Assembly: GCF_045037415.1 (NCBI RefSeq)
Contig: NZ_CP173438.1
DNA: 64,000 bases
Direction: 5' to 3' (one strand)
Source: Escherichia coli
GTDB lineage: Bacteria; Pseudomonadota; Gammaproteobacteria; Enterobacterales; Enterobacteriaceae
The notes under the pieces were generated by a model that ran no database searches, had not been told where the DNA came from, and saw only the letters and a program-made list of their open reading frames with translations. Position numbers and translations under genes: made by a program. Below are positions 56,005-62,512 of the stretch, piece after piece (the stretch's first letter is position 1; each line of letters begins with the position of its first letter).

Positions 56005-58008
56005 TCATCCTTGTTGCTGAAGCATGGGGAATAATTGTTCGCAAAGCAAAACACCGTTATTCATTGCTTCTACCCGTGCCTCGCTTTCTGTATTACGAAA
56101 TTGTCCCAACACATGTGCCAGCCGATAAAAACCCACCGCGGTGAGGTCATTCGCCAGCAACTCTGCCTCACCAATAGCACTCTGTTCCTGATAGCGCCAG
56201 CCGTTATGGAGCAGTTGAATAAGTAACGCCTGGCAGCGCATCAGCAACTGATGAGCGGTAGACGGCACAGGCAGAACGCTGGCAGAAGGTAGCGGTGCCA
56301 CAGGCGCAGTTTCTGCGTCCAGCGCCCAGGCGCGGGTTTTTGTCATCATCACCCGTGGTTCCAGTGTCAATTGCCCCTCTACAAAACTGACAAAGCCAGA
56401 AACCAGACTCACGGGGTCGTCTGTTTGTTGCAAAAGCGCCGCCATGCGTTCAACGGCAAAAGGAGAACAGGCAGATGCCGGAAGGGATAACGTCAGCACA
56501 TTATCTTCTCCTTCGCCGCTGATTACCTGCGCATCCAGTGTCTGGCGGCTGCTATCCCAACCGAGCGAAATACACTCCGCTACCGGCAGAATAAATAAGT
56601 TATCGACCTGGTTGAGTGGTCGTATGCAGGCGGGGGGACGCTGGCGTAAATATTCCCGCAAAGCCACAATGCCCGGCTGGCGCAACGGCGCGCTCAACAT
56701 TTGCCAGGCGTCTGGCGACAGTGGAACAACACTACTCAAGCGGTTACGGGTCGCTAACAGCAGCTCGCCATCGGCACTGCGTTTTGCAGCTTGTGAAACA
56801 ATTTGCCCACCTGCCAGTGCGCCAGCCTGAAAACTAAACAGCCGACGCGTCGCTGCCGGTGAGTTTTCCTGTTCGCTTCTCTGCCAACTACGCGAAAGAT
56901 GCAAAATACTTCCTGTGTCGGGATCGGTAAACCAGATGCGTAAACCATACTGCTCAATATCCTGCCAGCAACGCATACCTAAAGACACCAGCCGCAGATG
57001 ATCAAGTTTTGCTTCTCCGGCAATGCCAGCGCCAACGACCGTGCGCCACGGCATGGGAGGAACTTCACCGATACTGTCGCGTCGCGCCATCTCTTGTACG
57101 CAATTTAATCGACTGTTTAATGCCGCAAGCTGACGTAAGCATTCTCCGGCATGGTAGTGGCTGGCACGGGCGTGGAAGGCATCAACACTGGCGCGCAATT
57201 GCCGTAGCGATTCACTCACCCATCGCCAGTTGCAGCGTTCCGCCGCTTGCTGCGCGCGACTGAAAGCGGCCTCGTAATGGATTGGCGGTTGACTTATCCC
57301 GCCCAGCCATAATGCCTGGCTTAATTGCTGAACATATTGACGACACGTTTTGCCTTCTTCGCTGGCAAACGGATCATCAGATGATGTCACGTGTTCACTG
57401 CGCATCTGCCAGATTAAATGAGTAAATTCCGCTTGCTGAGTTTTGGCCTCGACGAAGGCCTGCACAGCCAGTACGACATGTTCGCAAAGTGTGCCTTCAA
57501 TGCAATCACAGCGTGCGAAGCGAATGCTGCTGCGGGAATAAAAACGCACATCGCTCATCGGTAATCGGGCAGAGGGAATTTCGCCAGGCGCACAGAACAA
57601 CTCAATGGTGATGCCTTTAGCGACCAGCGCCTGCGCGCGTTTGCGGGTGGCATCGGGCAGGTTAGCCAGTTCTTTCAGCCAGATTGCTGGATCCCACTCT
57701 TCTTCTTTTTTTTCCGTAGGCTGGGCGGTGGCACAAAGTCGTTGATAACTTAACACCAGCATCACGCGATGACGGCACATGCCGCTGGCCCCGCAGGTGC
57801 ACTGAGCCTCTTTCAGTGCCTGGCCGTTCGCCAGCTGGGTACGGACACCGTCACTGAAGGTGGCGATTAAAGCGCCGTTCTCATGACTGATTTCCGGGAC
57901 GTTGCCATTTTCCAGTTCCTTAAGGCTGCGCTTAACAAAACCGGCATTGCTTAACGCCGTCAGAGCCTGCGGCGTCAGTTCTAATAATTCCGGACGTAGT
58001 GAATTCAT
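56005..58008 (-). CDS. yehQ: SWIM zinc-finger protein, last gene of yehLMPQ
   Basis: 667-aa ORF with two CxC...CxH SWIM-like motifs (AQCTCGASGMCRHRVML; ARCDCIEGTLCEHVVLA); ATGA overlap with yehP stop. Confidence 0.7.
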   Translation of the reverse strand: MNSLRPELLELTPQALTALSNAGFVKRSLKELENGNVPEISHENGALIATFSDGVRTQLANGQALKEAQCTCGASGMCRHRVMLVLSYQRLCATAQPTEKKEEEWDPAIWLKELANLPDATRKRAQALVAKGITIELFCAPGEIPSARLPMSDVRFYSRSSIRFARCDCIEGTLCEHVVLAVQAFVEAKTQQAEFTHLIWQMRSEHVTSSDDPFASEEGKTCRQYVQQLSQALWLGGISQPPIHYEAAFSRAQQAAERCNWRWVSESLRQLRASVDAFHARASHYHAGECLRQLAALNSRLNCVQEMARRDSIGEVPPMPWRTVVGAGIAGEAKLDHLRLVSLGMRCWQDIEQYGLRIWFTDPDTGSILHLSRSWQRSEQENSPAATRRLFSFQAGALAGGQIVSQAAKRSADGELLLATRNRLSSVVPLSPDAWQMLSAPLRQPGIVALREYLRQRPPACIRPLNQVDNLFILPVAECISLGWDSSRQTLDAQVISGEGEDNVLTLSLPASACSPFAVERMAALLQQTDDPVSLVSGFVSFVEGQLTLEPRVMMTKTRAWALDAETAPVAPLPSASVLPVPSTAHQLLMRCQALLIQLLHNGWRYQEQSAIGEAELLANDLTAVGFYRLAHVLGQFRNTESEARVEAMNNGVLLCEQLFPMLQQQG

Positions 58009-59141
58009 GACTGAAGATTCTCCGCAAGCCAGGAAGCCAGCTCGCCCGGTGTCATTGCGGCTATTTGTGCGCCGACATTAACCAGCGCCTGGGCCGTATC
58101 GTGGTCATAGCAAGGTGTTGCGCTGCTATCGAGCGCCGCCAGTCCCAGCACTTTGATGCCGCTCTGGACACACTTTTTCACCTGATGCGTCAGCAATGAT
58201 GATGACCCCCCTTCGTAAAAATCGCTCACGAGGATAATGACGCTTTTCGCTGGTTGTTCAATAAGTTGCCGACCATATTCCACAGCACTGGCGATATTGG
58301 TCCCGCCGCCTAATTGCACTTTCATTAATAGCTCTACCGGATCGGCAACGTCTGCCGTGAGATCAACCACGCTGGTGTCAAAAGCGACCAGATGGGTACG
58401 AATGCCGGGTAACTGCCATAAACAGGCCGCCATCACTGCGGAGTGGATCACCGAATCAACCATCGATCCGCTTTGATCAACCAGTAGGACCAGTTGCCAT
58501 TGTTCGCTATAGCGTTTTATGCGGCTGTTAAAGCGGGGGGATTCGATATACAACTTGCCGTGTTGCGGGTGCCAGTGTTGCAGGTTGGCGCGCAGAGTAC
58601 TTTTGAAATCAAAGTTTCGCGCCAGTGAAATAAATGAGCGGCGACGGCGATCGCGTACTCCAGAAAAAGCCTGACGAACTTCCTTTGCCAGTCGAGCCAT
58701 AATTTCTTCCACAACCTGGTGCACTATCCGGCGGGCGGCAGCCAGTACTTCGGGATTCATCAGATGTTTGGTGTGCAAAACGGCGCGTAGCAGGCTTTCA
58801 GAAGGCTGCATACGTTCCAGCACGTCGAGATTCGTCACCACATCTTCAATGCCGTAGCGCAGCACGGCATCGCTTTCCAGCCGCTCAATCACCTGTTGCG
58901 GAAACAGCGTGTGAATGCTGTTAATCCACTCAGGGGTGGTGAGATTTGAACGACCTAATCCACCGTAACGTTCACCACGCTGGAGCCGTTCAGGATCGCG
59001 CCCATACAGCCACTCCAGCGCGTGGTCTATCTGCCGGGCGTTGTCATCCAGCCCACAAAGGGTCGTTTCTGCCGCTTCGCCAAGAATTAATCGCCAGCGT
59101 TGTAGCTCACGGGTGGTCAGAAGATCGTTCAGTTCAGACAT
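58005..59141 (-). CDS. yehP: von Willebrand factor A (vWA) domain protein
   Basis: Track ORF trimmed to MSELNDLLTTRELQRW (378 aa); MIDAS motif in LVLLVDQSGSMVDS; start overlaps yehM stop by 8 nt. Confidence 0.75.
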   Translation of the reverse strand: MSELNDLLTTRELQRWRLILGEAAETTLCGLDDNARQIDHALEWLYGRDPERLQRGERYGGLGRSNLTTPEWINSIHTLFPQQVIERLESDAVLRYGIEDVVTNLDVLERMQPSESLLRAVLHTKHLMNPEVLAAARRIVHQVVEEIMARLAKEVRQAFSGVRDRRRRSFISLARNFDFKSTLRANLQHWHPQHGKLYIESPRFNSRIKRYSEQWQLVLLVDQSGSMVDSVIHSAVMAACLWQLPGIRTHLVAFDTSVVDLTADVADPVELLMKVQLGGGTNIASAVEYGRQLIEQPAKSVIILVSDFYEGGSSSLLTHQVKKCVQSGIKVLGLAALDSSATPCYDHDTAQALVNVGAQIAAMTPGELASWLAENLQS

Positions 59142-61413: not shown

Positions 61414-61423
61414 GCATCTTTCC

Positions 61424-62512
61424 TCACGGCAGGCGGTGGCGAGCTTGATAATAAGCCTGCCAGTGAGCTTCTTTATGTGTGGCAACACGTTGTTCGAAGT
61501 AACGGCGCAGGCGCGCGCGGTCTTCTTCGTTATCTTTGACGATGGTTCCGGCAATACAGTCCACCAGATCGGCTGGCTCACCTGCTCGATTCGCTAAAAA
61601 CCAGGCGCGGACGCCCACCGCGTGGGCCACGTTCACGGCTTCAGCGGTGGACATAATCGCTGTCAGTGTATCCATTGACGTTTTCTTTTCGCCGTTGGCA
61701 CGCAGATCGCGAAAGGTGCGGACCAGTAACTCCAGTACCGCGTCAGGCACTTTATGCGGAATGCCGCTATGGGCCAGCAAACGCGCCGAAGCACTGGCGA
61801 CAAGCTCCAGCTCCTGGGCGAAATCCATAATCGGAAAGACAGTTTCAAAATCGAAGCGACGCTTTAGCGCGGCACTCATTTCATTGACGCCGCGATCGCG
61901 CGTATTGGCAGTGGCAATAATATTAAAGCCTTCCCGAGCATAGAGTTGACTGGCTTCACCAGTGAGTTCCGGCACCGTCATAACCCTGTCAGAAAGCATA
62001 CCTAATAAACAGTCTTGTACTTCCAGTGGAGTACGCGTTATCTCTTCAAAACGGACGATTTTGCCGTCGCGCATTCCCAGGTAAAGCGGGGCAGGGACCA
62101 GCGCTTCCGTTGACGGACCATGATTGATAAGCAGGGCGTAGTTCCAGCCGTACTTGATTTGATCTTCGGTGGTAGATGCGCCGCCCTGGATGGTTAACCC
62201 GGCATCGCCGCTAATAGCGGTTGCCAGTAATTCAGACAGGAGAGATTTTGCGGTACCCGGTTCCCCCACCAACATCAAACCGCGCCCGGTGGCAAGAGTG
62301 ACTAACATGCGTTCGACAGCAGAGGGACTAATCACCACTTTACGGCGAATATTTTGCGCTTCGTCGCCAAGAATAAAAGCACGGGCCGCAGGCAAACTTA
62401 ACTGCCAACCGGGCGGGCAAGGTGCGTTATCATTTTGTTTTAATTTTGCCAGTTCAACGGCGTATAACACAGCAGCAGGCGGACGCTGCAGGTGATTATT
62501 CTGCGGTGACAT
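61424..62512 (-). CDS. yehL: MoxR-like AAA+ ATPase
   Basis: Track ORF trimmed to MSPQNNHLQRPP (362 aa); Walker A in LMLVGEPGTAKS. Confidence 0.75.
   Translation of the reverse strand: MSPQNNHLQRPPAAVLYAVELAKLKQNDNAPCPPGWQLSLPAARAFILGDEAQNIRRKVVISPSAVERMLVTLATGRGLMLVGEPGTAKSLLSELLATAISGDAGLTIQGGASTTEDQIKYGWNYALLINHGPSTEALVPAPLYLGMRDGKIVRFEEITRTPLEVQDCLLGMLSDRVMTVPELTGEASQLYAREGFNIIATANTRDRGVNEMSAALKRRFDFETVFPIMDFAQELELVASASARLLAHSGIPHKVPDAVLELLVRTFRDLRANGEKKTSMDTLTAIMSTAEAVNVAHAVGVRAWFLANRAGEPADLVDCIAGTIVKDNEEDRARLRRYFEQRVATHKEAHWQAYYQARHRLP

What the first reader, a model, noticed from the sequence alone, without database searches (positions are those of the whole stretch)
56005..62512. yehLMPQ: translationally coupled MoxR-AAA+ / unknown / vWA / SWIM operon of unknown function
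Four minus-strand genes are packed with overlapping or near-abutting junctions (10-nt yehL-yehM gap; 8-nt yehM/yehP overlap; ATGA yehP/yehQ overlap), implying stoichiometric co-expression. A MoxR-type AAA+ ATPase with a MIDAS-containing vWA partner is a recurring chaperone-like pairing; the added 759-aa unknown protein and double SWIM zinc-finger protein have, to my knowledge, no assigned function. The operon borders the TA/ERIC islet.
Basis: partly seen in the sequence, partly recalled or inferred. Interest (0 to 1): 0.5.

Follow-up and report, generated by a model that had tools for sequence, protein, structure and literature searches.

The report
Conserved MoxR–vWA machine, function unknown
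The four tightly packed E. coli genes yehLMPQ are real, and with the giant WGR/DUF4132 genes just upstream they form a conserved five-part module found in several bacterial phyla; no study of its function turned up in the open-access papers I could search, and predicted structures suggest an ATP-driven switch, a Tiki/TraB-type hydrolase and DNA-binding-like subunits.

Summary
Window 56005-62512 (- strand) is E. coli yehL-yehM-yehP-yehQ, with exactly the stated junctions: a 10-nt gap, an 8-nt ATGTCTGA overlap and an ATGA overlap.

Pfam supports AAA_5/MoxR (YehL), DUF5682 (YehM), VWA_CoxE (YehP) and SWIM (YehQ).

New here:
- **Conserved module.** The order L-M-P-Q with overlapping junctions holds in 80 loci from at least four phyla. 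A giant DUF4132 gene, often starting with a WGR domain and present in 1-3 tandem copies, sits directly upstream in 69 of 80. The unit therefore extends past the window.
- **YehQ.** It has one invariant SWIM, a second SWIM kept in half the family, and a tandem OB-like region.
- **Catalytic motifs.** The YehL ATPase motifs and the YehP MIDAS motif are at least 95% conserved, and dN/dS is 0.03-0.12.
- **Regulation.** From papers: molR (upstream arm) is LexA-regulated, and yehLM are H-NS-silenced.
- **K-12.** It carries an amber stop in yehQ and decayed upstream genes.

There are no PADLOC hits and the module is essentially absent from phages. Best reading, inferred: an ATP-gated sensor-hydrolase complex.

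The parts
61424..62512 (-). yehL: MoxR-class AAA+ ATPase (362 aa)
   Evidence: Pfam AAA_5 1.4e-33. Best solved relatives are midasin AAA modules, 3e-8. Walker A GEPGTAKS, Walker B VRFEE, sensor ATAN and the KRRF arginines are at least 95% conserved in 80 homologues. dN/dS 0.03-0.04.
60679..61413 (-). yehM N-terminal alpha/beta domain (about aa 1-245): predicted TIKI/TraB/Ere/ChaN-superfamily hydrolase fold
59134..60678 (-). yehM C-terminal helical-repeat scaffold (about aa 246-759)
58005..59141 (-). yehP: CoxE-type vWA protein with MIDAS (378 aa)
   Evidence: Pfam VWA_CoxE 5.8e-71, residues 151-372. MIDAS DQSGS / GGGT / SDF is at least 95% conserved in 78 homologues. Natural DUF5682+vWA fusion proteins exist.
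56005..58008 (-). yehQ: SWIM / helical / tandem-OB-like protein (667 aa)
   Evidence: AF2 model pLDDT 91.7. Pfam SWIM. dN/dS 0.07-0.09.
57745..57843 (-). YehQ SWIM finger 1 (aa 56-88; C70, C72, C78, H80)
   Evidence: All four ligands are invariant in 56 of 56 homologues.
57457..57528 (-). YehQ SWIM finger 2 (aa 161-184; C167, C169, C175, H177)
   Evidence: Ligands are present in E. coli but in only 28 of 56 homologues; D168 is invariant.
56323..57015 (-). YehQ beta-rich region (aa 332-562): two OB-like barrels
62513..62623 (-). yehL 5' region (promoter not identified)
   Evidence: GC is 43-49% across windows spanning the yehL-yehI spacer, against 53-56% in the genes. [quoted passage not shown] No sigma-70 consensus match lies in this stretch.
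63591..64000 (-). 3' end of yehI (DUF4132 protein; the gene runs off the window)
   Evidence: Annotated as DUF4132 protein YehI. DUF4132 genes lie directly upstream of yehL on the same strand in 69 of 80 loci. They lie inside the operon in Allorhizobium and after yehQ in Burkholderia and L089.

Best explanation
yehLMPQ is the core of one multi-subunit machine whose fifth part is the set of giant WGR/DUF4132 proteins encoded just upstream (MolR, a second paralogue, and YehI).

Shown here:
- The five gene families travel together in a fixed order, with coupling-type junctions, across distant phyla.
- YehL keeps all ATPase motifs and YehP keeps an intact MIDAS site.
- YehM has a TIKI/TraB-type fold with an invariant His/Glu/Arg/His set, followed by a helical scaffold.
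- YehQ has an invariant SWIM finger and an OB-like tandem.
- Many DUF4132 partners begin with a WGR domain.

Inferred:
- The YehL ring and the YehP MIDAS domain act as an ATP-driven switch, as in other MoxR-vWA pairs. It grips a peptide of a partner subunit and remodels the complex.
- This gates the YehM hydrolase, most likely a protease, as in Tiki and RRSP.
- The WGR/DUF4132 paralogues and the SWIM/OB protein YehQ are the input side, binding an unusual nucleic acid such as damaged, single-stranded or foreign DNA.

The biological role would then be a DNA-damage or invader-triggered response. Which of the two is open.
For: Module conservation:
- YehL is present in 80 of 80 loci, YehP in 78 of 80 and YehQ in 76 of 80, in fixed order. 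DUF4132 is adjacent in 69 of 80, and no other gene family recurs.
- DUF4132 is embedded between yehM and yehP in Allorhizobium.
- Precomputed Pfam labels independently give WGR+DUF4132 / AAA_5 / DUF5682 / VWA_CoxE.
- Distant branches (Proteus, 28% identity) keep the same set.
- Junction overlaps are conserved, and full-length DUF5682+vWA fusions exist.

Catalytic competence:
- ATPase and MIDAS motifs are at least 95% conserved. dN/dS is 0.03-0.12.

Folds:
- YehQ resembles OB-fold ssDNA binders.
- WGR: Pfam 3.3e-18; PDB 2ra8 7.8e-16 and PARP3 WGR 0.1. A WGR motif is present in the DUF4132 genes of at least 49 of 73 loci.

DNA-damage link, from papers:
- molR is listed among LexA-regulated genes with a known SOS box. 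A CTGG-N8-ACAG sequence lies just upstream of the first DUF4132 gene's ATG.
- Deinococcus WGR and DUF4132 genes are derepressed when DdrO is depleted.

Framework: the MoxR-vWA 'capture a peptide, remodel with ATP' model is described in the paper read.
Against: - No physical interaction, ATPase activity, hydrolase activity or nucleic-acid binding has been shown for any subunit.
- The TIKI assignment rests on a predicted structure only. A profile search of solved-structure sequences found nothing, and hhalign against E. coli YbaP (TraB family) gave 0.3% probability. I could not superpose the active sites.
- LexA-type boxes were not found upstream of DUF4132 arrays in 22 other proteobacterial loci, nor actinobacterial boxes in actinomycete loci. 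SOS control may therefore be an Escherichia peculiarity.
- In E. coli the two arms are separated by about 1 kb (yehK, repeat, zorO/orzO) and appear to be regulated differently, by LexA and H-NS.
- Some loci lack DUF4132 within 8-9 kb.
- Arguing against a typical mobile defence system: the cluster is core in E. coli (99% of genomes), has no PADLOC match, and is nearly absent from phages and rare on plasmids.
Confidence: 0.4

Rival explanations
1. Client-specific chaperone. YehL/YehP, with YehM and YehQ as adaptors, exist only to fold, assemble or disassemble the giant DUF4132 proteins, as RavA-ViaA, CoxD-CoxE or midasin do for their clients. Nothing is sensed, and the YehM hydrolase-like domain is a processing or inactive module.
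For: All characterised MoxR-vWA pairs are assembly or remodelling factors. YehL's closest solved relatives are midasin AAA modules. DUF4132 genes are the only constant neighbour. They are very large (about 1200 aa) and present in 1-3 copies, which is plausible for difficult clients.
Against: It does not explain the invariant His/Glu/Arg/His set in YehM, the invariant SWIM finger and OB-like tandem in YehQ, or the WGR domains. DUF4132 proteins occur without the module in Deinococcus, as a two-gene operon. A few modules lack DUF4132 nearby.
Confidence: 0.25
2. Dedicated anti-phage or anti-plasmid defence system: a new relative of the vWA-MoxR 'ternary' conflict systems. Diversifying DUF4132 paralogues act as invader sensors and YehM as the toxic effector.
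For: The system has a MoxR-vWA core plus extra components, as in the conflict systems of Kaur et al.. Sensor-like components evolve faster: identity to Klebsiella is YehL 89%, YehP 85%, YehM 70%, YehQ 65%, YehI 56%. DUF4132 forms tandem paralogue arrays. The module is frequent in actinomycetes and myxobacteria. Toxin-antitoxin cassettes have inserted into the cluster. yehLM are H-NS-silenced.
Against: No PADLOC model matches any of the seven proteins. The cluster is present in 99% of E. coli genomes, flanked on the sides examined by metG/apbC and by yehR, yehS and btsSR. There is only one match in 50,697 phage records, and that contig is bacterial. It is found in 38 of 72,556 plasmid records, mostly megaplasmids or mislabelled chromosomes. 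All four genes are under strong purifying selection. No phage test exists.
Confidence: 0.2
3. Metal-centre or cofactor insertion system like CoxD/CoxE/CoxF, echoing the old name molR ('molybdate metabolism regulator').
For: YehP belongs to Pfam VWA_CoxE. MoxR-vWA pairs insert metal clusters in CO dehydrogenase and methanol dehydrogenase. ChaN, a TIKI-fold relative of YehM, binds haem.
Against: No enzyme client or cofactor-biosynthesis gene recurs in 80 neighbourhoods. The Deinococcus study saw no change in molybdenum genes. The WGR, SWIM and OB modules are unexplained.
Confidence: 0.05

Closest known systems
MoxR AAA+ / vWA chaperone pairs (RavA-ViaA, CoxD-CoxE, MoxR-MoxC/L, midasin)
   Same: An AAA_5-type ATPase with intact motifs is encoded next to a MIDAS-bearing vWA protein of the CoxE type. 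YehL is the name-giving member of the 'YehL subfamily' of MoxR. Its best solved relatives are midasin AAA modules.
   Different: There are three further obligatory partners (DUF5682, SWIM/OB protein, WGR/DUF4132 giants) and no identifiable enzyme client nearby.
vWA-MoxR 'ternary' NTP-dependent conflict systems (VMAP, iSTAND, FtsH, beta-propeller types; Kaur et al. 2020)
   Same: A MoxR-vWA switch combined with additional large, faster-evolving components. The CoxD/CoxE pair is the proposed ancestor. Both are common in actinomycetes, myxobacteria and other large-genome soil bacteria.
   Different: The third components are different families. YehP has no C-terminal effector or repeat extension. 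The bpMoxR Pfam match is marginal (0.0022). The paper does not mention yeh genes. The cluster is a core chromosomal locus in E. coli.
TIKI/TraB/PrgY/Ere/ChaN superfamily (Tiki Wnt protease, RRSP Ras/Rap1 endopeptidase, erythromycin esterases, HopBA1)
   Same: The predicted fold of the YehM N-domain matches seven members. Invariant His, Glu, Arg and His sit at the ends of core strands and in a helix, with spacing like the RRSP catalytic set.
   Different: There is no sequence-level similarity. An insertion of about 100 residues lies between E35 and R175. The domain is fused to a helical scaffold of about 500 aa. Substrate and chemistry (peptide or ester) are unknown.
RPA/Teb1/POT1-type tandem OB-fold ssDNA binders and SWIM zinc fingers
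   Same: YehQ has a canonical, invariant CxCx5CxH finger and two consecutive OB-like barrels.
   Different: The similarity is only fold-level and weak. OB folds also bind proteins and sugars. No DNA-binding residues could be checked.

Membership tests
MoxR family of AAA+ ATPases (YehL subfamily) | AAA_5-type AAA+ domain with Walker A, Walker B, sensor 1 and arginine finger | tested here: met
   Pfam AAA_5 1.4e-33. GEPGTAKS, VRFEE, ATAN and KRRF are at least 95% conserved in 80 sequences.
MoxR family of AAA+ ATPases (YehL subfamily) | Gene adjacent to, or in an operon with, a vWA/MIDAS protein | tested here: met
   yehP lies two genes downstream in 78 of 80 loci.
MoxR family of AAA+ ATPases (YehL subfamily) | Hexameric ring with ATPase activity stimulated by the vWA partner | not testable with these tools
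   Needs biochemistry.
vWA-MoxR ternary conflict systems (Kaur et al. 2020) | Third component of the VMAP, iSTAND, FtsH-like or beta-propeller type | tested here: not met
   Partners are DUF5682, SWIM and DUF4132/WGR. bpMoxR is only 0.0022.
vWA-MoxR ternary conflict systems (Kaur et al. 2020) | Variable effector or repeat domains fused C-terminal to the vWA domain | tested here: not met
   The YehP vWA domain ends at residue 372 of 378.
TIKI/TraB/Ere/ChaN superfamily (YehM N-domain) | Parallel beta-sheet core flanked by helices (TIKI fold) | tested here: met
TIKI/TraB/Ere/ChaN superfamily (YehM N-domain) | Catalytic 2His/2Glu set plus a conserved basic residue | tested here: inconclusive
   H11, E35, E83, R175 and H202 are invariant with RRSP-like spacing. 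No residue-by-residue superposition was possible.
TIKI/TraB/Ere/ChaN superfamily (YehM N-domain) | Detectable sequence or profile similarity to family members | tested here: not met
   Pfam gives only DUF5682. The profile against PDB sequences finds none. hhalign against YbaP gives 0.3%.
SWIM zinc finger | CxCxnCxH zinc-ligand signature | tested here: met
   Finger 1 is invariant in 56 of 56. Finger 2 is present in E. coli but in only 28 of 56. Pfam 1.3e-3 and 0.21.
Known anti-phage defence systems (PADLOC-DB v2) | Match to a defence-protein HMM | tested here: not met
   Zero families for YehL, M, P, Q and the three DUF4132 proteins at E <= 0.01.
CoxD/CoxE-type metal-cluster maturation systems | CoxE-type vWA protein | tested here: met
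   VWA_CoxE 5.8e-71.
CoxD/CoxE-type metal-cluster maturation systems | Linkage to the structural genes of the client metallo-enzyme | tested here: not met
   No recurring enzyme family in 80 neighbourhoods.
WGR-domain proteins (upstream partners, outside the window) | Pfam WGR domain | tested here: met
   3.3e-18 for the second DUF4132 gene. The first also matches the same WGR-containing N-terminus. YehI lacks it.

The most novel reading that the evidence does not exclude
The seven genes molR to yehQ encode a previously undescribed class of ATP-gated, nucleic-acid-sensing hydrolase complex. WGR/DUF4132 paralogues and a SWIM/OB subunit sense the signal, a MoxR-vWA switch transduces it, and a TIKI-type protease is the output. 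The complex is widespread in several phyla and is part of the E. coli core genome. Its function has escaped notice partly because K-12 carries a damaged copy: an amber stop in yehQ and decayed molR.
Probability: 0.3. Interest if true: 0.8.

Novelty: new variant of a known kind. Interest (0 to 1): 0.6.

Why it matters
E. coli still has a conserved, purifying-selected, seven-gene cluster of about 18 kb for which I found no functional study, and one arm of it is listed in reviews as a LexA-regulated (SOS) gene. This work defines the module's real boundaries, gives testable folds for the two 'unknown' proteins (with H11/E35/R175/H202 as predicted hydrolase residues and OB/WGR modules as candidate DNA binders), and shows that K-12 is a poor background for testing it. 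That makes the question directly testable. If the proposed mechanism is right, it adds a new output (a TIKI-type hydrolase) and new sensors to the MoxR-vWA switch family, and possibly a new branch of the DNA-damage or invader response.

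Tried and rejected
- **PADLOC, NCBIfam and PHROGS scans.** Nothing useful for the four proteins or the DUF4132 giants.
- **Sequence searches of solved structures for YehM, YehP and YehQ.** Nothing found.
- **hhalign of the YehM N-domain profile against E. coli YbaP (TraB family).** Probability 0.3%. The TIKI link is therefore fold-only.
- **Conserved SOS control.** Exact and 1-mismatch CTGT-N8-ACAG boxes, and actinobacterial GAAC-N4-GTTC boxes, were not found upstream of the DUF4132 arrays or yehL in other taxa. The idea of universal LexA control was dropped.
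- **Additional conserved neighbour genes.** All-against-all clustering of flank ORFs found none beyond the five families. A PD-(D/E)xK nuclease (L089) and a HEAT_2 protein (L088) next to the module are single cases.
- **The one 'phage' match.** It is an unverified faecal contig carrying bacterial genes (PdaB-type deacetylase, RarA).
- **'yehL' hits in the literature.** Many were the surname Yehl.
- **H-NS targeting by low GC of the genes.** The genes are 53-56% GC; only the spacer is AT-rich.
- **The 760-1540-nt gaps between yehM and yehP in three loci.** These are insertions, for example a HigB/HigA-like pair, not extra components.

Full report
**What is in the window.** Region 56005-62512 is 100% identical to several complete E. 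coli chromosomes and is found in 5362 of 5426 complete E. coli genomes. RefSeq annotates yehL (61424-62512), yehM (59134-61413), yehP (58005-59141) and yehQ (56005-58008), all on the minus strand. Reading the sequence confirms the three junctions:
- yehL TGA, then 10 nt (ggaaagatgc), then ATG of yehM.
- yehM and yehP share ATGTCTGA, an 8-nt overlap.
- yehP and yehQ share ATGA.

The spacer upstream of yehL holds an OrzO-P antitoxin RNA (Rfam, 98.6 bits; 62624-62699). Opposite it lies a 29-aa ZorO-like ORF (62943-63032).

**Domains.**
- YehL: Pfam AAA_5 (1.4e-33). Its closest solved relatives are the AAA modules of midasin.
- YehM: DUF5682 (3.6e-97).
- YehP: VWA_CoxE (5.8e-71).
- YehQ: two SWIM matches (1.3e-3 and 0.21).

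In 80 homologues the YehL Walker A, Walker B, sensor and arginine motifs are at least 95% conserved. In 78 homologues the YehP MIDAS motif (DQSGS, GGGT, SDF) is at least 95% conserved. Against other Escherichia species, dN/dS is 0.03-0.04 for yehL, 0.05-0.08 for yehP, 0.10-0.12 for yehM and 0.07-0.09 for yehQ. All four are working genes.

**The unit is larger than the finding.**
- YehM has 2263 cluster representatives at E <= 1e-3 in a 1.84-billion-protein library.
- A scan of one genome per species returned at least 544 confirmed hits, of which 80 loci were kept. They come from Enterobacterales, Burkholderiales, Xanthomonadales, Myxococcota, Actinomycetota and a Thermoanaerobaculia MAG.
- In these loci YehL is present in 80, YehP in 78 and YehQ in 76, always in the order L-M-P-Q on one strand.
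- Junctions overlap in 68 of 78 loci (M-P) and 65 of 76 (P-Q), with medians of -4.
- A giant DUF4132 gene, in one to three tandem paralogues, lies directly upstream on the same strand in 69 of 80 loci. It lies after yehQ in two Burkholderia and on the opposite strand in one myxobacterium. It is absent within 8-9 kb in five loci.
- In Allorhizobium the order is AAA-DUF5682-DUF4132-vWA-SWIM.
- Precomputed Pfam labels on two further contigs give the same families, and a 28%-identical Proteus branch keeps all five.
- No other gene family recurs.
- Full-length DUF5682+vWA fusion proteins exist.

In this strain the partners are three genes upstream. Two carry an N-terminal WGR domain (Pfam 3.3e-18). 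The third is yehI, whose 3' end is at 63591-64000.

**The 'unknown' proteins.**
- *YehM active-site candidates.* R10, H11, E35, H51, E83, D101, R175, G199 and H202 are invariant in 95 sequences. The spacings H11-E35 (24 residues) and R175-H202 (27) are close to RRSP's 28 and 29.
- *Caveat.* The link is fold-only. Profile searches found no sequence similarity.

**Regulation and population facts.**
- A review lists molR among LexA-regulated genes with a known SOS box. A CTGG-N8-ACAG sequence sits just upstream of the first DUF4132 gene.
- A Deinococcus study found WGR and DUF4132 genes strongly derepressed on DdrO depletion.
- I did not find LexA-type boxes in 22 other proteobacterial loci or in actinomycete loci.
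- yehL and yehM are up-regulated in hns/stpA mutants, with an intergenic H-NS site. The spacer is 43-49% GC and the genes 53-56%.
- K-12 MG1655 has a GAG-to-TAG change at yehQ codon 616, and its upstream genes are reduced to yehF plus the pseudogene yehH. K-12 screens are therefore poor tests.
- The module has no PADLOC match. It has one spurious 'phage' match and occurs in 38 of 72,556 plasmid records.

**Interpretation.** The best-supported reading is a single five-part machine. A MoxR-vWA ATP-driven switch gates a TIKI-type hydrolase. WGR/DUF4132 paralogues and the SWIM/OB protein form the input side, probably binding nucleic acid. The co-inheritance, intact motifs and folds are shown here; the direction of signalling, the substrate and the biological role are inferred. 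I give this 0.4. The rivals:
- A client-specific chaperone for the DUF4132 giants (0.25).
- A dedicated anti-phage system related to the vWA-MoxR ternary systems (0.2).
- A CoxD/E-like metal-insertion system (0.05).

**Comparison and novelty.** The cluster works like, and YehL/YehP are members of, the MoxR-vWA pairing; YehL names a MoxR subfamily. It is not a member of the four published ternary conflict systems, because the third components differ and YehP has no effector extension. No paper in the searched library assigns a function. That library lacks most subscription-journal papers, including Snider and Houry 2006 and the original LexA-regulon papers, which I could not read. I rate it a new variant of a known kind, with interest 0.6.

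Noticed in passing
window 62624-62699 (-) and 62943-63032 (+): A zorO/orzO-type type I toxin-antitoxin pair: OrzO-P RNA (Rfam RF02083, 98.6 bits) and a 29-aa hydrophobic ORF, MDTLTQKLTVLIAVLELLVALLRLIDLLK. It is inserted between yehK and yehL. K-12 lacks it; its yehK-yehL spacer is 306 nt.
   Followed up: partly
window about 63090-63215: An ERIC-like repeat sequence (…AGTAAGTGACAGGGGTGAACG…) lies between the TA pair and yehK. It was recognised from memory only and not tested.
   Followed up: no
window 63214-63530 (-): yehK is annotated as frameshifted in the identical strain SK1144 but is intact in K-12.
   Followed up: no
window 58268-58283 (-): The +1 ribosomal frameshift cassette reported for yehP (GTGGAGTATGGTCGGC, PMC2790909) reads GTGGAATATGGTCGGC here. 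The GAG-to-GAA change removes one base of the Shine-Dalgarno-like stimulator.
   Followed up: partly
L086 (K-12 MG1655) 17101-18945 and 4475-8270: K-12 yehQ ends at an amber codon (GAG to TAG, codon 616), giving 614 aa instead of 667. The two WGR/DUF4132 genes upstream are reduced to yehF (WGR only) and the pseudogene yehH.
   Followed up: yes
L027 4137-5678 (Azoarcus MAG): A HigB/HigA-like toxin-antitoxin pair and other small ORFs are inserted between yehM and yehP. L025 and L026 have other insertions at the same junction.
   Followed up: partly
L088 9001-21543: One MAG carries a natural DUF5682+vWA fusion (1180 aa). Directly downstream is a second AAA_5-DUF5682-vWA set, preceded by a 501-aa protein and a HEAT_2 protein instead of DUF4132.
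   Followed up: partly
L089 14108-17608: In an actinobacterial genome the DUF4132 gene follows the yehQ homologue, and a PD-(D/E)xK nuclease gene follows on the same strand. It is a single case among 89 loci.
   Followed up: partly
plasmids NZ_CP103756.1 and NZ_CP049079.2 (116495-118771): Two 181-kb E. coli plasmids from blood isolates carry a 100%-identical copy of yehM with yehP. This suggests a captured chromosomal segment.
   Followed up: no
metG/DUF4132/yeh region of E. coli ST131 (literature): A paper reports that ST131 sublineage L1a has the blaCTX-M-15 transposon TnMB1860 inserted in the DUF4132 region next to this cluster (PMC9334617).
   Followed up: no
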